Assembly (NCBI GenBank): GCA_034520885.1
Contig: JAXHNE010000003.1
Location: forward strand, 22,073 to 86,072
Reading direction: 5' to 3'
Length of the DNA: 64,000 bases
Source of the DNA: Candidatus Saccharimonadota bacterium
GTDB lineage: Bacteria; Patescibacteriota; Saccharimonadia; Saccharimonadales; JAXHNE01
Translations under genes and position numbers: made by a program
Part shown: one piece after another, positions 33,482-45,527 of the stretch
How the letters are laid out: each line of letters opens with the position of its first letter
Numbering within the stretch: position 1 is the first letter of the stretch
Notes under the pieces: model-generated
What the model was told of the DNA's origin: nothing
The model's input: only the letters and a program-made list of their open reading frames with translations
The model's database searches: none

Positions 33482-35020
33482 TTAATTTACGGTTAATGGG
33501 GCGTGGCCAAGTGGTAAGGCACCAGTTTTTGGTACTGGCATTCGCAGGTTCGAATCCTGCCGCCCCAGCCAAGAAGGATTTTCAGATTTTTCAGACAGAA
33601 CGCGCCAGCGATCGCCAAAGGCGAGGCTGGCGTTTTTGTTGGTCAGGTGGCGGTTCGTTCCGATTTTTCCGACAAACGATTTGATTTCATCATAATCGTT
33701 TGAAACAGCCAGTTTTTCAGCGTGGTGAGCGTCTCGAACCCATTGTTTCAATGGTTCGATCCAATTGTTCCCCTTTTGCCCAAAATCGGCTTTCTTTTGT
33801 TTCAAAGCCAATTTCTGCTTGATAAGCTCGTCTTTCTTGGCGAGGTAAACTTGTTTTTCAATGTTGCCGTCCAAGAATTCATTGACGAGCTTGTCCAGCT
33901 TGGTTTCGGTGGCTTTGATGCGTTCTTCAAGATTTTGAGCAAAAGCCTGCGAAGACTGGCTATTTTCCTTTCCCCAGACATCAATCTGCGCCAGCATCTT
34001 TTCTTGCCAGTCTTCGCTGATAGCAACTTTTGAGATTAACGACTTTAACTGCTCCAGCAATTTATCATCTCGCACATAGCCCTGCGAGCAAGGCACAAGC
34101 CGTTTCGAACAGCGATAGTAGGCATAAGTCCCACCGTTGCCACGAGCATATTGCGCCGTGATTGCCGCACCGCACTCACCACAAGTAAAAAGTCCGGTAA
34201 ACGGAAAGTTATGACTACGCTTGCTCTTTCTCGGCTTGGCCTTGGTCTTTAACACCTTTTGCACTTTCTCAAAAGTTGCTATGGGAACAATTGGCGGAAA
34301 ATCGCCCTCGTATACTTCGCCATTTCGCTTGATAAGCCCGATATACACAGGATTTATTAGGGTCCTCTGCATCATCGATTGGCTAAGCGGTTTTCCGCTG
34401 GCGCTCACCACGCCCCAAAAACTCAGGCGCTGGCGCAGACTCTCCAGACTGTGTCTGCCATCAGAATATTCTTCAAAAGCTCGTTTGAGTATGCGAGCCT
34501 TCACAGAGTCAAGTTCAATGTTGTGTGTCTTGAGATTGTTGACATAACCAATGGGAGCTTTACCAGGCCACTCGCCGCGCCTGAGTTTTTGGCGAATCCC
34601 ACGCTTTACATTCTCCGACAGGTTGTCGGAGTAATATTTACTTTGTCCAAAGGCCACTTGGAGCATAAACAAGCCTTGCGGAGTTGGCTCAAACCAAAAG
34701 GTTGGAAAGCGCAAAGCAACAATTTTGCCAGTGTCTATGCTGTAAATGATCTGCCCGCCATCCATACTATTTCTAGCTAGTCGGTCAGGATGCCAGGCCA
34801 GTATCCCGACTGGCTGTTTACTCTCGTGTATTTTAGCGATCATTTCGTTAAAGACAGGTCGGCCTGGTTGCTTTGCGCTTCTGCTCTCGGTGAAAGTTTC
34901 GGCAATGGCGATATTCTCTCGCTTAGCAAAGTCCGCCAACTCCGCAAGCTGCGCCTCTATGCTCATAACCTGGCGTTCTTCGTCCTCGCTGGACTTTCTG
35001 GCATAGAGAAAATACTTCAT
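33482..35020 (-). CDS. large serine recombinase (true C-terminus uncertain)
   Basis: Catalytic N-terminus MKYFLYARKSSEDEERQ, recombinase domain, Zn-ribbon CGECG...YYRCS, then a coiled coil. The last roughly 55 codons are read from IR-A and antisense tRNA-Gln. Confidence 0.85.
   Translation of the reverse strand: MKYFLYARKSSEDEERQVMSIEAQLAELADFAKRENIAIAETFTESRSAKQPGRPVFNEMIAKIHESKQPVGILAWHPDRLARNSMDGGQIIYSIDTGKIVALRFPTFWFEPTPQGLFMLQVAFGQSKYYSDNLSENVKRGIRQKLRRGEWPGKAPIGYVNNLKTHNIELDSVKARILKRAFEEYSDGRHSLESLRQRLSFWGVVSASGKPLSQSMMQRTLINPVYIGLIKRNGEVYEGDFPPIVPIATFEKVQKVLKTKAKPRKSKRSHNFPFTGLFTCGECGAAITAQYARGNGGTYAYYRCSKRLVPCSQGYVRDDKLLEQLKSLISKVAISEDWQEKMLAQIDVWGKENSQSSQAFAQNLEERIKATETKLDKLVNEFLDGNIEKQVYLAKKDELIKQKLALKQKKADFGQKGNNWIEPLKQWVRDAHHAEKLAVSNDYDEIKSFVGKIGTNRHLTNKNASLAFGDRWRVLSEKSENPSWLGRQDSNLRMPVPKTGALPLGHAPLTVN
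33497..33571 (+). tRNA. trnQ: tRNA-Gln (anticodon TTG), CCA encoded
   Basis: TGGGGCGTGGCCAAGTGGTAAGGCACCAGTTTTTGGTACTGGCATTCGCAGGTTCGAATCCTGCCGCCCCAGCCA. Anticodon stem CCAGT/ACTGG with loop TTTTGGT, T-arm GCAGG-TTCGAAT-CCTGC. Confidence 0.9.
33566..33657. repeat. IR-A left arm (92 bp)
   Basis: Perfect reverse complement of 35139-35230 by hand comparison; includes the last 6 nt of tRNA-Gln. Confidence 0.9.
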
Positions 35021-35138
35021 TTGTTTATGCTCCTAGTCCGTAAAGCGTGGGGTTAAAAACTGTCTGTTTAGTGTCGCTTGCGACGCTTTGGAAAAATCGG
35101 AATACAAAAACTTGTTTTTGTGCGTTGCCCGGCAACGC

Positions 35139-35230
35139 CGAACCGCCACCTGACCAACAAAAACGCCAGCCTCGCCTTTGGCGATCGCTGGCGCGTTCTG
35201 TCTGAAAAATCTGAAAATCCTTCTTGGCTG
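35139..35230. repeat. IR-A right arm (92 bp)
   Basis: Reverse complement of 33566-33657. It is an inverted copy of the recombinase 3' end placed upstream of the recombinase start. Confidence 0.9.
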
Positions 35231-35404
35231 CAGTTGTTGAATGAAGCTCGAACCCTGTTCGAGCGAGATAATTAAATCCCGCCCTGCGGCTCCGCCCGCT
35301 GGCATAGCCAGCGGCCCAAACCAAAAGATTTTTCTTCATGATTGTTTTGAATTTCGGCGGGTGGTTTTTTCTTTTTAATTGAATTCGAAAAATATTTTGG
35401 TTTG
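35225..35404. repeat. IR-B left arm (180 bp)
   Basis: Perfect reverse complement of 39099-39278; its outer end TGGCTG overlaps the IR-A right arm. Confidence 0.9.
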
Positions 35405-35507
35405 ACGAGCCGACCTTACAATAGTCCCATTCTTCTGGTAACATTGTAATGTAGTTTGAGGCCAATTTTCTCATTCCACCCATACAATTTAATGTTACTA
35501 TTTCAAT

Positions 35508-35699
35508 ATGATTAAATCAACTAAAATAAAGCAATTACGAGAAGATTTAGGGCTATCACGAGAAAAGCTAGCTCGACTGGCGGATGTTTCTAATAATACT
35601 CTCATCAACATAGAGTCTGGCAAACAACAAAATCCAACTATTGAAACTATGAAAAAAATAGCAAAAGCGCTTAATGTGTCGATTGAGGAGTTAGTTTAA
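35508..35699 (+). CDS. XRE-family helix-turn-helix transcriptional regulator (63 aa)
   Basis: IKQLREDLGLSREKLARLADVSNNTLINIESGKQQNPTIETMKKIAKALNVSIEEL is a typical HTH_3 sequence. Confidence 0.8.
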   Translation: MIKSTKIKQLREDLGLSREKLARLADVSNNTLINIESGKQQNPTIETMKKIAKALNVSIEELV

Positions 35700-35701
35700 T
35701 T

Positions 35702-36337
35702 ATGAAATTCGATTCACAAAAAACAATAGAGCAACTTGTGGACTATCTCATGCCAGAGTTAACGCCGTATGAGGTGGCGATGTATATACTGCTGTTCCGC
35801 AACACATATTTAAGGAGTGCAAAATCCGAAATACGAATAGGAAAAAGAACAATAGCTGATCTTTATGGTAAAGGCTCGCGTGGAGAAAAAACGAATTATG
35901 CACATGTAACAAAGCTCGTGAAGGGGCTCCAATCAAAAGATTGCATCCACATTGGCGATACAAACCGAGACGGTACCCTATATACGATATTTCTCCCAAG
36001 TGAAATACCACTGGTGAAGGAAAAATTATCCATTACTGCAGATCCAGCAGAAGAAGATTACTATACTGATCCTGAAAAAAGAAAAGAAATACTTGAAAGG
36101 GATAACTATACCTGCCACTACTGTGGTGAGAAAGTGACCGAAGATAATGCAACATTGGATCATCTATTTCCACAACATAAAGGCGGCAAACACGGAAAAG
36201 ACAACCTAAAGACAAGTTGTTTGATTTGCAATAGTATTAAGTCTGGCAAGACCTATGAAGAAGCTGCTCCACACCTGTTAAAAAGCATTCAAGATAGAAG
36301 ACAAAAACAAGTCGATCGAACAAAGTCTGGAAAGTAA
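35702..36337 (+). CDS. HNH endonuclease with N-terminal winged-helix-like domain (211 aa)
   Basis: CHYCGEKV...DHLFPQHKGGKHGKDNLKTSCLICNSIK (HNH, Cys4 type). Starts 2 nt after the HTH stop. Confidence 0.8.
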   Translation: MKFDSQKTIEQLVDYLMPELTPYEVAMYILLFRNTYLRSAKSEIRIGKRTIADLYGKGSRGEKTNYAHVTKLVKGLQSKDCIHIGDTNRDGTLYTIFLPSEIPLVKEKLSITADPAEEDYYTDPEKRKEILERDNYTCHYCGEKVTEDNATLDHLFPQHKGGKHGKDNLKTSCLICNSIKSGKTYEEAAPHLLKSIQDRRQKQVDRTKSGK

Positions 36338-36339
36338 TA

Positions 36340-38976
36340 ATGTCGGTTTCGGTGAAGACACATGCAAAAGATTATCTTCTTGAATATAAAACCAAGAATG
36401 ATATGCCTCAATGGTTAGCGTTGTTAATCCAGAAGACAATTGACACAAATGCAAAACTCTCTGATGGAGAGAAGAATCTAGTGTTCCAAAAACTACTCGA
36501 AGAAAATGGAATTAATACTCAGCAAGGCCTTGAAGAGACCAAGAGCGACAAAGGAATAGACAATAAAGAAACAATAGCCAGTTCAAAAGAACAAAAGCTT
36601 ACTTTGCAAAAAATTACTCATGTAAAAGGTGTTAATGCTCTTATTCCGAATCAGTCAATTACTCTAAGTTCAGCGTGTACTGTAATCTTTGGACTTAACG
36701 GCGCTGGTAAAAGTGGATACTTTAGAATACTCCATGAACTTGCAGGTGGAATTAAATCTAAAAACATTTTAGACAATATTCATAACCAAGGCGACGGTTT
36801 AGAAGTTAATGTGGATTTTTTATTAGATAACAGAACGCAAAAACCCTTCAAATGGGATGATAAAACACTGCGCGGTATTGCTCCGTTTGATCGGGTAAAA
36901 GTTTTTGATACGGAATATTTACCAATTTTCTTAAATGAGCGTGAAAGCTCAGTAAATATAGAGCCGCTTGGGCTTAATTTTTTTCAGACAATTGCAACAG
37001 TTATCGACGGATTTAAGGAAAAGCTAGACCAAGATCGACAGCAAGAACAAAACACGTCCCCTGACCTACAAACATTAATAGAAGTTATTCACTCTAATGA
37101 ATTGAAAATATTACTTGACAAGGATTCATTAACAAAGCAGGAAGAACAACTATTAAATAGCAATAAGCACTTTTCAAATGATGACACAGAAAAACTCACT
37201 AAATTGAAAAACGACAAGACTTTACTTGAAAAAAACAATACGGAAGACAGTAGAAAAGTGTTAAATCAAGAAAAGAAGGAGATTGATGATCTCGATAATC
37301 ACTTATCTTGCCTAAAAACAAACCTTGAAAAACTAACCAAGGATATCTCATCTGCCATAAATAATTATCTAAAAACTAAGAAAATAAGGGATGAGCGGCT
37401 AAAACAATTTGAGGTTTTAAAAAACATACCTTCTCAAGACAGTGAGGAGTGGCAAGGTTTTGTTGAGTCAGCGAAAGAATACGGTACAGAAATTGACCAG
37501 TCCACGTTTAACAGTGACGAAAAATGTATCTATTGCCATCAGCCATTGAGTGATGAGGCAATGAAGCTCATTCAGGCGTATGCTCAATATCTGGATGATC
37601 AGTCTCAACAAAATTTTAAAGACTCTGTTGATAAAGTTACCGAGCTGAAAGAAGAAATTGATGATTTAATCACGGATTTTGCTTTTTCTGAAAATTTGGA
37701 AAAAGCATTGGCCAAGATACACAATGCTCAGGAACAAGACTACAAGACGTTGGTTGCTCAAATTTTAACAGCAGCAAAGAGCCAAAAAGGAGGTTTAGAT
37801 AAAGCACTAAATGAAAAAACTGCTGTAGCTGAAAAGTATACGCTAGATTTATTTAGCGCAGACGAAAAACTTGAAAAGCTGTCAGAATCAAAGCAAAAAG
37901 AGCTGGATGGCTTGCAGCAATCATATGCGCAAAAATCTAAAAAAATAAATGAGATTGTAGTAGAGATTAACAGGCTTGAAGACAAGCGAAATATTACAAA
38001 ATGGAAAACAAAGATTGAAAATTATTTCTCAACTAGCAAGTGTGTACAAAAATATTCAGCCCTTAATCAAGCAATTAGCACAAGGGGAATTACAGAGCTG
38101 GGCTCAAAAGCACATGATGAGCTTTTGACAGATTCAATAAAAAAATCTTTTGAGGAGGAGTTAAAGGCTCTTGGCAAAGATATAGAAGTTAGTCCTGAAA
38201 CAACAGGAGCAGGAAAGGGTTCTGTGCGCACAGGACTTAAAATTTTAGGAAAAGATGTGCGTACTATCCTAAGTGATGGCGAGCAAAAAGCAGTTGGCCT
38301 TGCACTATTTCTAGCAGAGATTGAAAGCCAAAATGATAAAAGCCCTATTGTGTTCGATGACCCTGTTACAAGTATTGATCATGAAGTAGCCGATGCATTA
38401 GCAAAAAAACTTATGAGTTTGTCATCTGACAGACAAATCATTGTCTTTACTCACAACAAACTGTTCTATGACTCATTAGTCTATTGGGGAGGAAGTCTTA
38501 AGGATGAAAAAGATAATAAAACTCATCATGTGTGCAAAAACTACACTCAAAAAGGTTGTAGCGGCCAAGGTTGTCACGTTTACACTTATAAAGTCGATAG
38601 AGAAGCAAAGGATAAAACGGGTAAAATATTTGAAGCACAGAACGAATCATGCAGTTATTTTATTGAAAAAGCCGAGAAAGAGATGAAGGGCAATTACTCG
38701 TTAAGCAGTGTTTCTGGTTACTTAAAGTCAGCAATCGAATATTATATTGATGAGAAAGTGCTATTAAAAACCGGCTTGATGAAGGATCGACTTCGCGGCA
38801 TTGGAGTGCCCTGGGAAAATCTTAAAAAAATCGATAATAAAGAAGAAATCATCAATAAACCTGAGGCCTACTGGAGTAATTTAAGTAATCGCGGAACTCA
38901 TGTCACTCAAAATTCAAATGAGAACCCTTTGAAAACCGAAGACTTAAATAACATCATTGATTTTTTAAAATCTTAG
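36340..38976 (+). CDS. Rad50/SMC-like ABC ATPase with coiled-coil CxxC hook, AAA_13 / RloC-like (878 aa)
   Basis: Walker A GLNGAGKSG, long Lys/Glu-rich coiled coil with CIYCHQPL in the middle, signature LSDGEQKAV, Walker B IVFDDPVTSID, H-loop VFTHN. The C-terminal tail has LKSAIEYY...NRGTH, reminiscent of the PrrC/RloC nuclease motif. Confidence 0.65.
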   Translation: MSVSVKTHAKDYLLEYKTKNDMPQWLALLIQKTIDTNAKLSDGEKNLVFQKLLEENGINTQQGLEETKSDKGIDNKETIASSKEQKLTLQKITHVKGVNALIPNQSITLSSACTVIFGLNGAGKSGYFRILHELAGGIKSKNILDNIHNQGDGLEVNVDFLLDNRTQKPFKWDDKTLRGIAPFDRVKVFDTEYLPIFLNERESSVNIEPLGLNFFQTIATVIDGFKEKLDQDRQQEQNTSPDLQTLIEVIHSNELKILLDKDSLTKQEEQLLNSNKHFSNDDTEKLTKLKNDKTLLEKNNTEDSRKVLNQEKKEIDDLDNHLSCLKTNLEKLTKDISSAINNYLKTKKIRDERLKQFEVLKNIPSQDSEEWQGFVESAKEYGTEIDQSTFNSDEKCIYCHQPLSDEAMKLIQAYAQYLDDQSQQNFKDSVDKVTELKEEIDDLITDFAFSENLEKALAKIHNAQEQDYKTLVAQILTAAKSQKGGLDKALNEKTAVAEKYTLDLFSADEKLEKLSESKQKELDGLQQSYAQKSKKINEIVVEINRLEDKRNITKWKTKIENYFSTSKCVQKYSALNQAISTRGITELGSKAHDELLTDSIKKSFEEELKALGKDIEVSPETTGAGKGSVRTGLKILGKDVRTILSDGEQKAVGLALFLAEIESQNDKSPIVFDDPVTSIDHEVADALAKKLMSLSSDRQIIVFTHNKLFYDSLVYWGGSLKDEKDNKTHHVCKNYTQKGCSGQGCHVYTYKVDREAKDKTGKIFEAQNESCSYFIEKAEKEMKGNYSLSSVSGYLKSAIEYYIDEKVLLKTGLMKDRLRGIGVPWENLKKIDNKEEIINKPEAYWSNLSNRGTHVTQNSNENPLKTEDLNNIIDFLKS

Positions 38977-39098
38977 ATAGAATTTATAGTGCCTGATTTG
39001 GTTAAATTTAGCATCACATTTACAAGTTTGCCACTAGGCCCGCGCCGAAGGCGCGGCTGGGGTGGGAGCGGCTCCCTTACTTGCTTTAGCAAGGGAGA

Positions 39099-39278
39099 CA
39101 AACCAAAATATTTTTCGAATTCAATTAAAAAGAAAAAACCACCCGCCGAAATTCAAAACAATCATGAAGAAAAATCTTTTGGTTTGGGCCGCTGGCTATG
39201 CCAGCGGGCGGAGCCGCAGGGCGGGATTTAATTATCTCGCTCGAACAGGGTTCGAGCTTCATTCAACAACTGCAGCCA
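39099..39278. repeat. IR-B right arm (180 bp)
   Basis: Reverse complement of 35225-35404. Ends ...GGGTTCGAGCTTCATTCAACAACTGCAGCCA, which resembles a tRNA 3' end. Confidence 0.9.
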
Positions 39279-39757
39279 TTCGACCCTGAAAACCATCCGG
39301 CTCAGGGCGAAGCAGGCTCATGGCTGTAAGCCATCAGACGAAATCATGATTTTTTCAGCCGGAGACTGGAGAATGTCCTGAGCAACGTCGAAGGACTATT
39401 CATGTACTATCTATACATTCTGCGCAATGCGCACAACCGACTATACATTGGGCATACGAACAACCTGGAACGTCGCCTCCAAGATCATAGCAGTCAGTCA
39501 GGCGCTAAGTTTGTTAAAGATTATGGCGATTTTGAATTAGTTTATTTTGAAGAATTTGCCAGTAGAGCCAAAGCCATGAAACGGGAAAAACAAGTAAAAG
39601 GTTGGTCAAGAGCCAAAAAAGAAGCCTTGATTTCAGCCGATATTGAAACCTTAAAGAGTCTTTCAAGAACTCGTGGCAGTAAGGAGGCTCGCCAAAATAC
39701 ACCTTCGTAATCCTATCTACCGCCCTAAGCCTGACGCGATAAAGGACTACACCAATC
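39273..39757 (+). mobile_element. GIY-YIG element: conserved 5' flank, GIY-YIG ORF, conserved 3' flank
   Basis: The flanks recur without the ORF at 42000-42177. The 5' flank and a gene stub recur at about 40660-40789. Confidence 0.45.
39402..39710 (+). CDS. GIY-YIG nuclease family protein (102 aa)
   Basis: MYYLYILRNAHNRLYIGHTNNLERRLQDH...E...KREKQVKGWSRAKKEALI is the classic small GIY-YIG (UPF0213-like) pattern. Confidence 0.85.
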   Translation: MYYLYILRNAHNRLYIGHTNNLERRLQDHSSQSGAKFVKDYGDFELVYFEEFASRAKAMKREKQVKGWSRAKKEALISADIETLKSLSRTRGSKEARQNTPS

Positions 39758-39974
39758 ACTATAAATTCGAGGTTAAAGCAAATATGTACTCACGCAACTT
39801 TGTTATAATTAAAGTGCCTGGTTGCCCGTAAAACTATGGTCAGGCGAGCAACTTGACTGTGTCGAGCTGCTCGCCGGGCCATAGAAACCAGCTTATTACA
39901 AGGAAGGTTGGGCAACGGTATCCAGGCTTTGGACCTGTATGCCCTAGCCAAGTATTGCAACAAAGGAGACCAGG

Positions 39975-40637: not shown

Positions 40638-40744
40638 ATAAATTCTTATCTCTAATCTAGACCGCAATGCTCAGCCATCAGACAAAATCATCAACTTTCA
40701 GCCATCAGGTTGGAGAATGTTCTGAGCAAAGCCGAAGAACGATC

Positions 40745-40789: not shown

Positions 40790-40898
40790 ATATCGAAAAA
40801 CTACCTCTTAGTCTTGAGAGACGAAATCCGTGCAAGCGAAGCGCATCCTGCATCCCCGGCCATTCATTATGTTATAATTTTAATATTAACAATTTGAC

Positions 40899-40996
40899 AA
40901 TATAAAGAGTGCGGGGAGAGACTTGCTTGTTGATCCGCCAGCAACCTATCTAACGACAAGGTGCTCCATCAAGCCCTGTATAGGGAAAGATATACA
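40899..40996 (+). promoter_or_regulatory. SAM-I (S-box) riboswitch aptamer
   Basis: Hand alignment to the S-box consensus. AAGAG junction, kink-turn-like GGAG/UGAU in P2, CAGCAACC...GGUGCU (P3), CCCU-GUAU-AGGG (P4), AAAGAUAU closing P1. GGGAAAG can alternatively pair with the terminator 5' arm. Confidence 0.6.
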
Positions 40997-41034: not shown

Positions 41035-41958
41035 ATGCCCATCGTTACGCCAGAATATAGCACAGACACACACCTATTTGAACGTCTCCAAGATTGTGGA
41101 GCAATAGTTATTGATCAAGAGGAAGCAGAGACACAAGACATACGTCCGGCAAAAATTGGCTTATTGAATCTTATGCCGGCACAAGTCATGGAAGCAACAG
41201 AACTTAGATGGCTTAGATTTATTAGTCATACTGTCCTTCAGATTGAACCGGTATTATTGAAGTTTGATGATGACAAACGAGAACTGCCTAATTCAAGTCG
41301 CAGAAACGTTCTTAAAAGATATCATCCATTTTCAGCTGCTACTGAGGATGGCTTAGATGGTCTTATTGTAACTGGGGACAACCAGGAGCGTCAGCAGGAT
41401 GGCACACCACTACCTATGAATGAACTACATTACGCCGAAGATCTAAAAGAGGTTATCGACTGGGCAAACAGCAATATTAGCGCCTCAATCTATTCCTGCC
41501 TTGCAAGCCACTATGCCCTCAACTACCAATACGGACTGTGTCGAGATATTAAAAACAGGAAATTTTTTGGTGTCTACGATCACCATGTTATGAAAGAGTC
41601 AGAAATAACTTTTGCAATGGATGATCTGATAAGGGCGCCACACTCTCGATGGGGGACTATTGCCACAGAGCATCTTGAAGCAGCAGGCTTGGATGTGTTA
41701 GCAGTAAGCGAAGAAGCAGGATGGCTTATTGCAGAAGATGTCTCATTAAGTGGCAACACAAATACTTATCTACAAGGTCATCCAGAATATTGGCGCTACG
41801 ATTTACATGATGAGTACGTAAGAGACAGGCAGTATGTGCCGGAAAATTACTACCCAGGCGACAATCCAGAGTTGCAGCCTATTTTATCGTGGTCTGGTGA
41901 CGCACGATCACTACTCTCGAACTGGATTCAAGGGATATATAAGAGCTATTCTTCGTAG
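41035..41958 (+). CDS. metA: homoserine O-acyltransferase, MetA family
   Basis: IRPAKIGLLNLMP, VLLKFDDD, LDGLIVTG, HSRWG motifs match MetA/HTS. Confidence 0.8.
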   Translation: MPIVTPEYSTDTHLFERLQDCGAIVIDQEEAETQDIRPAKIGLLNLMPAQVMEATELRWLRFISHTVLQIEPVLLKFDDDKRELPNSSRRNVLKRYHPFSAATEDGLDGLIVTGDNQERQQDGTPLPMNELHYAEDLKEVIDWANSNISASIYSCLASHYALNYQYGLCRDIKNRKFFGVYDHHVMKESEITFAMDDLIRAPHSRWGTIATEHLEAAGLDVLAVSEEAGWLIAEDVSLSGNTNTYLQGHPEYWRYDLHDEYVRDRQYVPENYYPGDNPELQPILSWSGDARSLLSNWIQGIYKSYSS

Positions 41959-41999: not shown

Positions 42000-42177
42000 C
42001 AGCCATTCGACCCTGAAAACCATCCGGCTCAGGGCGCGCAGGCTCATGGCTTGCGGCCCAGCCAGCAAGAAATGAGATTGAGAATGTCCTGAGCAACACC
42101 GAATGACTTAGAAGAATATACCTTCGTAATCCTATCTACCACCCTAAACTTCACGTAATAGAGGGCTACCCCAACCA
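42000..42177 (+). repeat. ORF-less copy of the GIY-YIG element flanks, including a tRNA-Gln 3'-end-like segment
   Basis: The 5' flank CAGCCATTCGACCCTGAAAACCATCCGGCTCAGGGC...GAGAATGTCCTGAGCAAC joins the 3' flank ACCTTCGTAATCCTATCTACC through only about 12 nt. 42038-42064 GCAGGCTCATGGCTTGCGGCCCAGCCA resembles the tRNA-Gln T-arm/acceptor. Confidence 0.6.
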
Positions 42178-44424: not shown

Positions 44425-44509
44425 CTGTTCAGCTTTCTTACCTATTCTTTTCATCACCCCGTAAAAGTAGGTCAAAGGCCGCGCCGAAACAGCTTTTTTA
44501 ACACTTAGG

Positions 44510-44533
44510 TGTTATATAACTAGTTATATAACA
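44510..44533. repeat. 24-bp palindrome, copy 2
   Basis: TGTTATATAACTAGTTATATAACA. Confidence 0.9.
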
Positions 44534-44616
44534 AAACCAAGCCAAATGGTGCGCTGTTATGCCAAGCGGCAGTATTTTCAGTATTTAATGTGGTAAGTAC
44601 ATGTTATGTTTAAACC

Positions 44617-45378
44617 ATGAAGAAAAACACCCAACGCTCATTACAAAAGCTAAATATAATTGCCGGAACTTTCCACTCAGTACTTGCTCTAGGAATATTG
44701 TATTTTTCCAATTCATTTTCGCTCCCCGTTACCGCGACGTACTTGGCGGGCCCGCCCGGCTCGGCTTTCACGGATCCTGTCGTACTGTTTAGCGTCCGAA
44801 TTGGCTACGCGGTTGCGTTGTTTTTGGCGCTGTCGGCTACCTTTCACTTTATTGTTGCTTCTAAAACCTTTTTTAAGCGTTATATCGGCGGCTTACATAA
44901 CAAAATCAATGTTTTTCGGTGGGTAGAATACTCAATTAGTTCTACGCTGATGATCTTGCTGATTGCCCAAATTACTGGAATTAGTAATTATGGGGCGTTA
45001 CTAGCAATTGCCGGTGCGAACGCCTCTATGATTTTATTTGGCTGGCTGCAGGAAAAATATGAATCTCCAGGGTCTGGTGGGTGGTTGCCGTTTATTTTTG
45101 GGTGTATAGCCGGGATTGTCCCATGGTTAGTTGTTCTTATTGCCGTGCTTTCACCAGGCTCACCATCAAGCGCTACGCCGCCGGCCTTTGTCTACGGGAT
45201 AATCGTTTCTATTTTTGTGCTGTTTAACTCTTTTGCGCTAATACAGTACAAGCAGTACAAAGCCAAAGGGAAGTGGAAGGACTACCTAAGGGGTGAGCGA
45301 GCCTACGTTATCTTGAGCTTTACCGCCAAAGCTGCGCTTGCTATCCAGATTTTTGCCAACACCCTGATACCGAACTAA
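44617..45378 (+). CDS. heliorhodopsin
   Basis: 7-TM protein. Long stretches match my recollection of the 48C12 prototype: FHF.V.S..FFKRY, FRWVEYS, NASMILFGWLQEKY, FGCIAGIVPW, FVYGII, FNSFAL, KGKW..YLRGERAY. The retinal lysine lies in SFTAKAALAIQIF. Confidence 0.85.
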   Translation: MKKNTQRSLQKLNIIAGTFHSVLALGILYFSNSFSLPVTATYLAGPPGSAFTDPVVLFSVRIGYAVALFLALSATFHFIVASKTFFKRYIGGLHNKINVFRWVEYSISSTLMILLIAQITGISNYGALLAIAGANASMILFGWLQEKYESPGSGGWLPFIFGCIAGIVPWLVVLIAVLSPGSPSSATPPAFVYGIIVSIFVLFNSFALIQYKQYKAKGKWKDYLRGERAYVILSFTAKAALAIQIFANTLIPN

Positions 45379-45468: not shown

Positions 45469-45493
45469 TGTATGTGGGTATCGTTGGGAAAAG

Positions 45494-45517
45494 TGTTATA
45501 TAACTAGTTATATAACA
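45494..45517. repeat. 24-bp palindrome, copy 3
   Basis: Identical sequence, between convergent gene ends. Confidence 0.9.
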
Positions 45518-45527
45518 ACGAAATTCA

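What the first reader, a model, noticed from the sequence alone, without database searches (positions are those of the whole stretch)
33482..35230. Large serine recombinase abutting tRNA-Gln, flanked by perfect 92-bp inverted repeats that contain its own 3' end
The recombinase ORF runs on the minus strand toward the tRNA. Its last roughly 55 codons are read from IR-A and then antisense through tRNA-Gln, so its functional C-terminus depends on the junction.

IR-A (33566-33657) starts with the tRNA's final CAGCCA and recurs, inverted and perfect, at 35139-35230, upstream of the recombinase start. An extra TTCCGATTTTTCC match further in is displaced by about 34 bp. Read on the minus strand, the junction 35404-35139 is a pseudo-tRNA end (…GGGTTCGAGC…CTGCAGCCA) followed by IR-A. 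That mirrors the genuine tRNA-end/IR-A junction and looks like an inverted internal attP-like site.

Possible explanations are a Hin-like invertible segment carrying its own recombinase, a transposon-like unit with long terminal inverted repeats, a rearranged integration product, or an assembly or MDA chimera.
Basis: partly seen in the sequence, partly recalled or inferred. Interest (0 to 1): 0.6.

Follow-up and report, generated by a model that had tools for sequence, protein, structure and literature searches.

The report
tRNA-targeting recombinase island with inner attP
A small mobile defence island sits at the end of a tRNA-Gln gene, inserted by a large serine recombinase that appears to recognise the universal tRNA T-loop, and, like well over a hundred relatives in other bacteria, it keeps a complete inverted spare copy of its own attachment site inside itself, which no published description we could find explains.

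Summary

The repeat is one link in a chain. All four junctions share the hexamer CAGCCA, the tRNA 3' end:
- tRNA|A (33566)
- P|A, inverted (35225)
- P|D (39273)
- E|D (42000)

I read this as attL, an internal inverted attP ("J"), and attR of a 5.7-kb island. The island carries the LSR, an HTH regulator and defence cargo (an HNH nuclease and a PDC-S06 ATPase).

It is not an artefact. An inverted repeat brackets the LSR gene in 131 of 162 related loci from several phyla, including long-read contigs.

The P arm is conserved across the family. Its GTTCG motif lies 5 bp (38 loci) or 6 bp (13 loci) further from the crossover than the tRNA T-loop GTTCRA. That matches the published attP/attB offset rule for LSRs.

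The LSR reading frame always runs through the crossover. Read across attP, it gains a conserved tail (…LLNEARTFFE) that evolves like coding sequence.

What J is for remains inferred. I found no prior description in the searchable literature, and I rate it a new variant of a known kind.

The parts
33497..33571 (+). tRNA-Gln(ttg). Its 3' part (T arm plus acceptor 3' strand) is the B half-site of attL.
   Evidence: ARAGORN. Rfam RF00005 at 66 bits. The T-loop GGTTCGA starts 25 nt from the CCA end, read directly from the sequence.
33566..33571 (+). Core CAGCCA at attL (tRNA nt 71-76). The predicted crossover lies in CAG (nt 71-73).
   Evidence: The same hexamer sits at all four junctions. The minimal common core across the family is 3 nt, at tRNA nt 71-73.
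33572..33657 (+). Arm A, the P' arm at attL. On the - strand it encodes LSR residues ~456-484. On the + strand it folds as a terminator-like hairpin plus U-run just downstream of the tRNA.
   Evidence: Inverted repeat I1, 100%. ORF translation. RNA fold -32.8 kcal/mol, z = -5.7.
33482..35020 (-). Large serine recombinase gene (512 aa, catalytic Ser10). The ORF runs through arm A and the core, then 28 codons antisense into tRNA-Gln.
   Evidence: Pfam PF00239, PF07508 and PF13408. Distant match to the A118 integrase C-terminal domains. 7338 homologues; R8, K9 and S10 are invariant.
35090..35138 (-). A remnant of the LSR 3' end (35090-35102) followed by a 36-nt in-frame insertion carrying two palindromes (35103-35138). 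It lies between the LSR promoter region and arm A'.
   Evidence: Comparable displaced extra repeats occur in L008, L038 and L058.
35139..35404 (-). J, a complete internal attP in inverted orientation. It comprises arm A' (35139-35224), the core (35225-35230) and the P arm (35231-35404). It lies between the divergent LSR and HTH genes.
   Evidence: Inverted repeats I1 and I2. P-arm motif match at 35225-35253. Present in essentially all relatives that have upstream sequence.
35508..35699 (+). HTH_3 (Cro/CI-type) regulator. A conserved backbone gene that is always the first gene next to J.
   Evidence: Pfam. tblastn finds it next to J and divergent from the LSR in at least 17 loci.
35702..38976 (+). 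Variable cargo: an HNH nuclease (35702-36337, PtuB-like) and an 878-aa AAA_13 / PDC-S06 ATPase (36340-38976).
   Evidence: Pfam. PADLOC PDC-S06 at E = 2.6e-198. Relatives carry other cargo at this position, mostly restriction-modification systems.
39099..39278 (+). attR left side: P arm (39099-39272) plus core CAGCCA (39273-39278).
   Evidence: 180-nt perfect inverted repeat with 35225-35404. P-arm motif at 39250-39278. The arm is conserved over its full length, with covarying hairpins, in related Saccharibacteria elements.
39279..39309 (+). D, the presumed original sequence downstream of tRNA-Gln (the B' side of attR). It has a hairpin, CCCTGA...TCAGGG.
   Evidence: Repeated exactly at 42006-42036. 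B' sides are not conserved between loci.
42000..42036 (+). Second copy of core plus D. It is preceded by a degenerate arm (E) whose GGTTT motif has tRNA-type (25-nt) spacing. Probably a remnant of an older event at the same tRNA.
   Evidence: Direct repeat D3, 37 nt at 100%. Sequence.

Best explanation
**What it is.** Window 33572-39272 is an integrated mobile island of a Candidatus Saccharibacteria genome. A large serine recombinase inserted it into the extreme 3' end of tRNA-Gln. Three sites share the core CAGCCA:
- attL = tRNA|A (33566)
- attR = P|D (39273)
- J = P|A (35225), a complete inverted attP between the recombinase gene and the cargo

Both long inverted repeats exist simply because J repeats the two arms that sit at the island's ends.

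**How the recombinase targets (inferred from sequence rules).** It appears to recognise the universal T-loop sequence GTTCRA on the tRNA side. It recognises the same motif, set 5 bp further out, on the element's P arm. The crossover falls at tRNA nt 71-73. The few bases at the tip of the P arm match whichever tRNA is targeted.

**The reading frame.** The recombinase ORF crosses the crossover point. From the excised or inverted form the protein ends in a conserved P-arm-encoded tail (…LLNEARTLFERDN). After integration, that tail is replaced by an antisense-tRNA peptide.

**What J does (inferred, not shown).**
- It is a live second attP. It lets the element enter in either orientation, or lets the recombinase segment flip.
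- It can occasionally capture a second tRNA gene.
- Its position between the divergent recombinase and HTH genes also makes it a plausible binding site for recombinase autoregulation.
- Its arms stay identical to the terminal arms through gene conversion.
For: **Shown in the window**
- Domain architecture of the recombinase.
- Two perfect inverted repeats and one direct repeat, all bounded by CAGCCA.
- GC falls from about 0.50 to 0.35-0.41 inside the island.

**Shown across the family**
- An inverted repeat surrounds the LSR gene in 131 of 162 loci. Of the 31 without one, 25 lack the necessary flank sequence.
- 65 loci plus the window were classified automatically as P arm | IR | LSR | IR | tRNA.
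- In 20 loci a second inverted repeat begins exactly at the core and brackets 1.1-8.9 kb of cargo. In each, the junction triplet reads T|A, P|A, P|D.
- Long-read contigs of 0.6-6 Mb show the same structure (L003, L061, L063, L072).
- The P arm is conserved from -14 to +20 whichever tRNA is targeted.
- The GTTCG offset relative to the T-loop is +5 in 38 loci and +6 in 13. This matches the rule that the zinc-ribbon-domain motif lies 5 bp nearer the centre in attB than in attP, and the 25-bp attP half-site (PMC3783163).

**The ORF crossing the site**
- Antisense-tRNA tails or P-arm tails appear in all 120 homologues inspected.
- The P-arm tail is conserved in about 75 loci.
- Variability by codon position follows 2nd < 1st < 3rd.
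- Pooled pN/pS is 0.50 in the LSR frame against 0.62-1.44 in the other five frames.

**J appears to be used**
- L078 has the opposite orientation, and its arms are only 91% identical, so the assembly is unambiguous.
- In L041 the recombinase segment sits between two genuine tRNA-Pro genes.

**Concerted evolution of the arms:** L072 versus L078.

**Backbone and cargo:** the HTH gene next to J is conserved in at least 17 loci. Cargo varies and is mostly defence genes.
Against: - No excised circle, empty tRNA-Gln site or attP-only contig was found. There were no circular contigs among about 165 loci and no relatives in the viral collection. Mobility is therefore inferred from architecture and from multiple copies per genome.
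- Canonical LSRs do not recombine attP with attL or attR. J should then be inert once the element is integrated, unless a free attB exists.
- Orientation is strongly biased, about 20:1 among reliable loci, and the HTH gene is always next to J. Frequent use of J, or frequent flipping, is therefore not supported.
- The P' arm shows only a weak motif and the B' side none. That is atypical for LSR sites and leaves the exact crossover dinucleotide uncertain.
- De Bruijn-graph assemblies collapse identical arms, so many short-read contigs cannot be trusted for arrangement (L163-L165).
- The coding signal in the P arm is modest, and it cannot be fully separated from constraint imposed by protein binding to the DNA.
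Confidence: 0.7

Rival explanations
1. **Phase-variable switch.** The recombinase itself flips the 1.5-kb segment that carries its own gene, by recombining attL with J. This would be Hin-like, but with an LSR. Flipping would toggle the protein's C-terminal tail (antisense-tRNA tail versus the conserved P-arm tail) and reverse the gene's direction relative to the tRNA promoter and the cargo. It overlaps partly with the best explanation.
For: - The segment is bracketed by inverted, identical sites.
- Inversion would regenerate the same two site types, so it would be reversible.
- Both tail types occur among database homologues, about 80% and 17%.
- L078 is reliably in the opposite orientation to its relative L072.
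- The P-arm tail evolves like coding sequence.
Against: - Reliable loci favour one orientation by about 20:1.
- Most P-arm-tail proteins come from short contigs where the assembler could have taken the wrong branch.
- attL x attP recombination is not a known LSR reaction (PMC3783163).
- Consensus assemblies cannot reveal minority orientations.
Confidence: 0.25
2. **J is a relic.** An ancestral inverted duplication of the recombinase 3' end plus attP persists only because gene conversion keeps repeats alike and because deleting it is difficult. It has no function.
For: - J still carries a fragment of the recombinase 3' end and an insertion, as expected of a duplication scar.
- The mini-ORF in J has no conserved start codon.
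- Orientation is essentially fixed.
Against: - J is retained, with an intact and consensus-like P arm, across elements whose recombinases are only 53-90% identical. These come from Patescibacteria, Omnitrophota, Bacteroidota and other groups.
- Streamlined genomes such as these rarely keep 270 bp of useless DNA for that long.
- L041 looks like a product of J recombining with a second tRNA.
Confidence: 0.15
3. **Autonomous transposon.** The recombinase segment is an IS-like transposon with 92-bp terminal inverted repeats that inserted between a tRNA and a pseudo-tRNA.
For: Long perfect terminal inverted repeats flank a single recombinase gene.
Against: - The two cores are inverted copies of a non-palindromic sequence, so a serine recombinase can invert the segment but cannot excise it.
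- There is no target-site duplication.
- The segment was never found away from a tRNA on one side and a P arm on the other.
- The outer flank is the conserved P arm, which itself recurs at the far end of the cargo.
Confidence: 0.04
4. **Artefact.** The inverted repeats are an assembly or MDA chimera.
For: Perfect inverted repeats can arise from chimeric reads or from path errors in an assembly graph. Many short-read contigs of relatives break in these very arms.
Against: - The same order, orientation and repeat boundaries occur in many independent assemblies from different studies. These include Nanopore-based contigs of 0.6-6 Mb (L003, L061, L063, L072) and loci whose arms have diverged to 81-96% identity.
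- The repeat boundaries coincide with the recombination core in every case.
Confidence: 0.02

Closest known systems
Phage-type large serine integrases (A118/LI, phiC31, Bxb1, SPbeta SprA)
   Same: - The same three-domain protein: resolvase catalytic domain with an N-terminal serine, a recombinase domain, and a zinc ribbon with a coiled coil.
- A short common core.
- An element-side half-site about 25 bp long and a host-side half-site about 20 bp long, with the outer recognition motif shifted 5 bp.
   Different: - Under 30% identity to any recombinase in the phage or plasmid collections.
- The target is the 3' end of many different tRNA genes, read through the T-loop, rather than one protein-coding gene.
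- The right-hand half-sites are weakly conserved or not conserved.
- The ORF runs through attP.
- A second, inverted attP is carried inside the element.
- No candidate directionality factor is present; the conserved backbone is only the recombinase and an HTH protein.
Hin/Gin/Cin DNA invertase systems (Salmonella H segment)
   Same: A segment bounded by inverted recombination sites carries its own serine recombinase gene, as hin does.
   Different: Those enzymes are about 190-aa invertases that use 26-bp sites plus a Fis-bound enhancer, and they switch frequently. Here the enzyme is a 512-aa integrase-type protein, the 'sites' are full att arms of 92 and 180 nt, and one orientation predominates.
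Tn3 / gamma-delta res site
   Same: A serine-recombinase site lies in the control region between two divergent genes. In Tn3 the site also serves as the operator for autoregulation (own knowledge).
   Different: res is the only recombination site and it resolves cointegrates. J is a spare copy of a site whose working copies are the element's ends, and no regulatory role for J has been shown.
tRNA-targeting genomic islands with tyrosine integrases, including tycheposons
   Same: Small cargo-carrying islands inserted at tRNA 3' ends, often several per genome, with variable adaptive or defence cargo (10.1101/2020.12.28.424599).
   Different: - Tyrosine integrases use a long identity block inside the tRNA and leave direct repeats.
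- Here the shared core is 3-7 nt at tRNA nt 71-76.
- The enzyme is a serine recombinase.
- The repeats are inverted.
Yeast 2-micron plasmid (FLP/FRT)
   Same: The predicted excised circle would contain two inverted copies of the recombinase's site. These would split it into two unique segments, one of which encodes the recombinase (own knowledge).
   Different: That is a tyrosine recombinase on a eukaryotic plasmid with its own replication origin. No circle and no replication genes were found here.
SSV1-type integrases whose attP lies inside the int gene
   Same: Integration changes the recombinase's own coding sequence (own knowledge).
   Different: In SSV1 a tyrosine integrase gene is split in two. 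Here only the last 15-28 residues are exchanged.

Membership tests
Large serine recombinase (serine integrase) | N-terminal resolvase catalytic domain with the nucleophilic serine | tested here: met
   PF00239, E = 5e-21, residues 4-151. R8, K9 and S10 are invariant in 18 homologues.
Large serine recombinase (serine integrase) | C-terminal recombinase domain plus a zinc ribbon with an inserted coiled coil | tested here: met
   PF07508 and PF13408. Residues 191-414 align to the A118/LI integrase C-terminal domains, 4KIS and 6DNW.
Large serine recombinase (serine integrase) | attP and attB share only a short core, and the outer (ZD) motif is about 5 bp closer to the centre in attB than in attP | tested here: met
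   Core of 3-7 nt. GTTCG offset of +5 in 38 loci and +6 in 13 loci. Rule taken from PMC3783163. This is an in-silico test only.
Large serine recombinase (serine integrase) | Pseudo-palindromic sites, with both half-sites recognised | tested here: inconclusive
   The P and B arms are strongly defined. P' has only a weak AAACTTT motif and a T-run. B' (D) is not conserved.
Large serine recombinase (serine integrase) | Unidirectional attP x attB reaction, with excision requiring a directionality factor | not testable with these tools
   No RDF candidate sits in the conserved backbone, which is the LSR plus the HTH gene. A biochemical assay is needed.
Integrative genomic island at a tRNA gene | Junctions attL and attR that combine host and element arms around a common core | tested here: met
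   T|A and P|D with core CAGCCA in the window. The same logic holds in 20 loci.
Integrative genomic island at a tRNA gene | An empty site in related genomes, or an excised circular form | tested here: inconclusive
   The flanking gene has no homologue other than the source genome itself. No circular contigs were found. No empty site was located.
Integrative genomic island at a tRNA gene | Atypical composition and variable cargo between relatives | tested here: met
   GC of 0.35-0.41 against about 0.50. Cargo differs completely between the window and L001 despite 88% LSR identity.
Hin/Gin-type invertible segment | A small (~190 aa) serine invertase with a C-terminal HTH, acting on ~26-bp sites with an enhancer | tested here: not met
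   The protein is a 512-aa integrase type. The repeats are 92 and 180 nt.
Hin/Gin-type invertible segment | Both orientations present in a population | tested here: inconclusive
   Between relatives, one reliable inverted case (L078) stands against about 20 in the usual orientation. No read-level data are available for a single population.
IS / transposon with terminal inverted repeats | Target-site duplication, and insertion at varied sites | tested here: not met
   There is no duplication. The unit is always flanked by a tRNA 3' end and a P arm.

The most novel reading that the evidence does not exclude
This recombinase family may control its own directionality without a separate directionality factor.

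- The gene spans attP, so integration swaps a conserved C-terminal tail for a junk antisense-tRNA peptide. That would disarm the enzyme.
- The internal inverted attP stores the conserved tail together with a second site. Flipping the recombinase segment, or binding of recombinase at the third site, could then re-arm the enzyme or unlock attL and attR.
- If this is so, the T-loop-reading enzyme would also be a natural way to retarget a serine integrase to almost any tRNA gene by changing three bases at the tip of the P arm.
Probability: 0.18. Interest if true: 0.85.

Novelty: new variant of a known kind. Interest (0 to 1): 0.72.

Why it matters
- **An unusual target.** Serine integrases are prized genome-engineering tools, but each normally has one fixed target. 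Most characterised ones insert into protein-coding genes rather than tRNA genes. This family seems to read the universal T-loop, and it sets its specificity with a few bases at the tip of the P arm. That would explain how its members colonise at least 11 different tRNA species across several phyla, and it points to a simple retargeting rule.
- **An unexplained architecture.** The three-site layout (attL, inverted attP, attR) and the reading frame that crosses the recombination site are conserved features that current models of serine-integrase directionality do not explain.
- **A practical consequence for genomics.** These elements appear to be a major vehicle for restriction-modification and other defence genes in Patescibacteria and similar small-genome bacteria. 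Their inverted repeats systematically break short-read assemblies next to tRNA genes. They also create recombinase protein entries that end in antisense-tRNA peptides.

Tried and rejected
- **Exact-protein look-up of the recombinase:** not on record.
- **Viral contig scan:** no relatives, so the family is not evidently phage-borne.
- **Phage and plasmid collections:** only hits below 30% identity.
- **Circular contigs among about 165 loci:** none.
- **Empty-site search through the upstream flanking gene:** failed, because its only homologue is the source genome itself.
- **Consensus promoter and terminator scan:** no better than shuffled sequence, so uninformative.
- **Rfam on the island:** nothing in the arms, only the tRNA and an unrelated SAM riboswitch.
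- **P arm as a small gene:** rejected, because indels shift the frame between relatives.
- **The mini-ORF at J as an independent small protein:** rejected, because it has no conserved start codon.
- **Contigs L163-L165, with the recombinase running into a P arm:** first considered as evidence for inversion or for circles. I then set them aside. They begin and end inside the repeat arms, and in L165 the second arm lacks the P site.
- **The end of the Logan contig inside the core:** considered as evidence for a crossover point. I did not rely on it, because a shared tRNA 3' half in co-occurring strains would explain it equally well.
- **Literature:** nine searches found no description of this architecture. 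Subscription-only papers were not searchable.
Full report
**1. Checking the observation**

- tRNA-Gln(ttg) occupies 33497-33571 on the + strand (Rfam 66 bits).
- A 512-aa ORF runs on the - strand from 35020 to 33482. It carries the Resolvase, Recombinase and Zn_ribbon_recom domains of a large serine recombinase, or LSR.
- The inverted repeat 33566-33657 / 35139-35230 is 92 nt long and 100% complementary.
- The last 58 or so codons of the ORF come from the repeat arm, the hexamer CAGCCA and 84 nt antisense to the tRNA.
- The additional TTCCGATTTTTCC match is real (33658-33670 and 35090-35102). It is displaced by 36 nt because of an in-frame 36-nt insertion at 35103-35138 that carries two palindromes.

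**2. The repeat is one link in a chain**

A wider repeat search found two more repeats:
- a second perfect inverted repeat of 180 nt, 35225-35404 / 39099-39278;
- a perfect 37-nt direct repeat, 39273-39309 / 42000-42036.

Every repeat boundary falls on CAGCCA, the last six bases of the tRNA. I name the flanks as follows:
- T = the tRNA 3' part
- A = 33572-33657
- P = 39099-39272, whose reverse complement is 35231-35404
- D = 39279-39309

The junctions then read T|A at 33566, P|A on the minus strand at 35225, P|D at 39273, and E|D at 42000. T|A and P|D are what integration of a circle carrying attP = P|A into attB = T|D would produce. The element is therefore 33572-39272. The P|A site in the middle, which I call J, is a complete attP in inverted orientation. 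It lies between the recombinase gene and the cargo, and both long inverted repeats follow from its presence.

GC content falls from about 0.50 to 0.35-0.41 inside the element. The cargo consists of:
- an HTH_3 regulator;
- an HNH nuclease (PtuB-like);
- an 878-aa AAA_13 ATPase that matches the candidate defence family PDC-S06 at E = 2.6e-198.

**3. It is not an artefact, and it is not unique**

The recombinase has 7338 database homologues. The two closest ones on long contigs show the same 92-nt repeat against tRNA-Gln. One, on a 640-kb contig, also shows the second repeat around entirely different cargo: a restriction-modification system and an AAA ATPase.

Scans of one-genome-per-species and metagenome collections gave 160 more loci. 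They come from Saccharibacteria and other Patescibacteria, and from MAGs labelled Omnitrophota, Bacteroidales, Planctomycetia and other groups.

An automated survey found the following.
- An inverted repeat of 30-273 nt, mostly 97-100% identical, surrounds the recombinase gene in 131 of 162 loci.
- Of the 31 loci without one, 25 simply lack the flanking sequence.
- 65 loci plus the window were classified as P arm | repeat | LSR | repeat | tRNA.

In 20 loci the second repeat begins exactly at the core and brackets 1.1-8.9 kb of cargo, and the junction triplet T|A, P|A, P|D holds in each.

Long-read contigs of 0.6-6 Mb (L003, L061, L063, L072) share the structure, as do loci whose arms have drifted to 81-96% identity. 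That rules out an assembly or MDA chimera.

Most short-read contigs end 100-450 bp upstream of the recombinase. That is what a repeat does to a de Bruijn graph. A raw-run Logan contig from the source sample ends inside the core.

**4. Anatomy of the sites**

The P arm is conserved across the whole family from about -14 to +20, numbering from the G of an invariant GTTCG. Its consensus is TCAAAATAG-GTTCGAGCTTCGTTCAGTAATTG. The next 3-7 bases match the end of whichever tRNA is targeted: CAG(CCA) for Gln, CGA(CCA) for Pro, and CCAC, CAAC or GCAC for Ala, Met and Arg.

The block of identity between the tRNA side and the P side always starts at tRNA nucleotide 71. The smallest common core is nucleotides 71-73 (L025), so the crossover lies there. 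I favour nucleotides 72-73, because the alternative would be palindromic (CG, GC) for Pro and Arg.

GTTCG in the P arm lies 5 bp (38 loci) or 6 bp (13 loci) further from the core than the T-loop GTTCRA of the tRNA. This is the signature described for serine integrases. In those enzymes the zinc-ribbon-domain motif is shifted 5 bp toward the centre in attB relative to attP, and the attP half-site is 25 bp long (PMC3783163).

The inference is that this family reads the universal T-loop as its host-side motif. That would explain why at least 11 tRNA species serve as targets.

The right-hand sides are atypical. P' (arm A) has only a weak AAACTTT motif and a T-run, and B' (D) is not conserved at all.

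Arm A also has two other roles. On one strand it encodes residues ~456-484 of the recombinase. On the other it folds into a GC hairpin followed by UUUUUGUU directly after the tRNA (-32.8 kcal/mol, z = -5.7), which probably replaces the displaced tRNA terminator.

**5. The reading frame crosses the site**

In all 120 homologues inspected, the ORF stays open through arm A and the core. The codon opposite CCA, usually Trp, is in frame.
- About 80% end in an antisense-tRNA peptide of the form W-S/L-G-R-x-D-S-N-x-R.
- About 17% end in W-S-Q-L-L-N-E-A-R-T-F-F-E-x(2-8)-stop. That is the P arm read in the same frame.

In about 75 loci the J copy encodes this tail with a stop 14-20 codons after the Trp. 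Three observations suggest the tail is translated:
- variability along the P arm follows the coding pattern 2nd < 1st < 3rd codon position;
- pooled pN/pS is 0.50 in the recombinase frame against 0.62-1.44 in the five other frames;
- between the window and L001, four of the five changed codons are synonymous.

I take this as moderate evidence that a recombinase carrying the P-arm tail is a real protein. It would be the form encoded by the excised circle, or by the segment in the flipped orientation. Integration would then exchange the tail for a junk peptide. The mini-ORF at J has no conserved start codon, so it is not an independent gene.

**6. What the internal attP may do**

The facts are these.
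- J is universal in the family.
- It always sits between the recombinase and a conserved HTH gene that diverges from it. The HTH gene is next to J in at least 17 loci.
- The arms of J evolve in concert with the terminal arms. In L072 and L078 the outer ~140 nt are homogenised within each element, while the inner ~50 nt have diverged and travel with the 5' or 3' side of the gene.
- J retains a scar of the recombinase 3' end, so it began as an inverted duplication of the gene end plus attP.

Two observations suggest that J is used.
- L078 carries the recombinase segment in the opposite orientation to its relative L072, and its arms are distinguishable.
- In L041 the segment lies between two genuine tRNA-Pro genes. 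That is the expected product of J recombining with a second attB.

Three observations argue against frequent use.
- Among loci whose arrangement can be trusted, about 20 have the usual orientation and one does not.
- The HTH gene is never at the far end of the cargo.
- No circles or empty sites were recovered.

Contigs in which the recombinase runs into a P arm and then into the HTH gene or the cargo (L163-L165) start and end within repeat arms. They could be graph-path artefacts, so I did not count them.

My best reading has three parts. J is a functional second attP that allows entry in either orientation and rare flipping or capture events. It may also act as a recombinase-binding site in the divergent control region, as res does in Tn3. 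Gene conversion keeps it identical to the ends. All three parts are inference. Canonical LSRs do not recombine attP with attL or attR (PMC3783163), so either J is silent once the element is integrated, or this family departs from that rule.

**7. Comparison with known systems, and novelty**

The protein is a member of the large serine recombinase family by every sequence test. It is under 30% identical to any recombinase in the phage or plasmid collections. The element works like a serine-integrase island. It differs from every described case I could find in four respects:
- it targets tRNA 3' ends through the T-loop;
- its half-sites are asymmetric;
- its ORF spans attP;
- it carries an obligatory inverted internal attP.

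It resembles the Hin system only in that the recombinase lies inside an inverted-repeat-bounded segment, and it fails the defining tests for that family. Nine literature searches found no description, although subscription-only papers were not searchable.

I rate it a new variant of a known kind, with interest 0.72.

**8. Source**

A flanking protein is 100% identical to a protein of a Candidatus Saccharibacteria MAG (locus tag U5L95_01150). It also occurs in run SRR26473340.

Noticed in passing
window 40897-40996 (+), with ORF 41035-41958: A SAM riboswitch (Rfam RF00162, 47 bits, above the gathering score) lies upstream of a 307-aa ORF. It sits inside the low-GC region to the right of the element. 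From the sequence alone I suspect a homoserine O-acyltransferase (MetA-like) gene, but I did not test this.
   Followed up: no
window 39273-39309 and 42000-42036: A perfect 37-nt direct repeat (core CAGCCA plus 31 nt of the tRNA downstream hairpin) brackets 2.7 kb holding a GIY-YIG gene, an unknown ORF and the riboswitch/MetA-like pair. The arm before the second copy (…GAGGTTTCAGACCACAACGCT) has tRNA-type 25-nt spacing. It looks like a decayed tRNA-Gln 3' end, and so like the scar of an older insertion or duplication at the same tRNA.
   Followed up: partly
window 39369-39397, 40713-40741, 42080-42108; and 39696-39758 / 42115-42177: There are three copies of a 29-nt motif (GAGAATGTCCTGAGCAAC…, 83-90% identical) and two copies of a 63-nt segment (83%). 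In the first copy the GIY-YIG gene (39402-39710) sits between the two repeat types, which are adjacent in the last copy. This is consistent with a homing-endonuclease-type insertion.
   Followed up: no
window 44505-44534 and 45493-45522: A 26-29-nt palindromic sequence (GTGTTATATAACTAGTTATATAACA) occurs twice, flanking a 253-aa membrane-protein ORF (44617-45378). A similar TTATATAACTA-containing repeat occurs twice on the host side of the tRNA in L001 (12273 and 13391).
   Followed up: no
L079 6384-8108 and 8156-11586; L061 and L063; L104 and L119: Several genomes carry more than one element. L079 has two in neighbouring tRNA-Ser and tRNA-Ala genes. One 6.2-Mb Bacteroidales contig has copies at tRNA-Pro(tgg) and tRNA-Pro(ggg). 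So the family multiplies within genomes.
   Followed up: partly
L041 940-2937: Here the recombinase segment lies between two complete, convergent tRNA-Pro genes (ggg and cgg), with arms only 81% identical. This is the expected product of the internal attP recombining with a second tRNA gene, which would imply a chromosomal rearrangement.
   Followed up: partly
L131, L137-L146, L152, L157-L161: A sub-family of 13 loci, targeting Glu, Lys, Arg, Ser, Ala and Ile tRNAs and with recombinases about 55% identical to the window's, has a 6-bp rather than 5-bp offset between the P-arm GTTCG and the T-loop.
   Followed up: no
Protein database entries P0001-P0120: Public protein records for this family end in peptides such as GRxDSNxRxxxPKxxALP. 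These are translations of the antisense strand of tRNA genes. Whether translated or not, such tails are a recognisable marker of these elements in annotation.
   Followed up: partly
L166 (Logan contig of SRR26473340), end = window ~33567: The raw-run contig carrying the upstream flanking gene stops inside the core (…GCCGCCCCA), about 30 nt earlier than a simple repeat-entry break would predict. Strain variants that share the tRNA 3' half could explain this. I did not resolve it.
   Followed up: no
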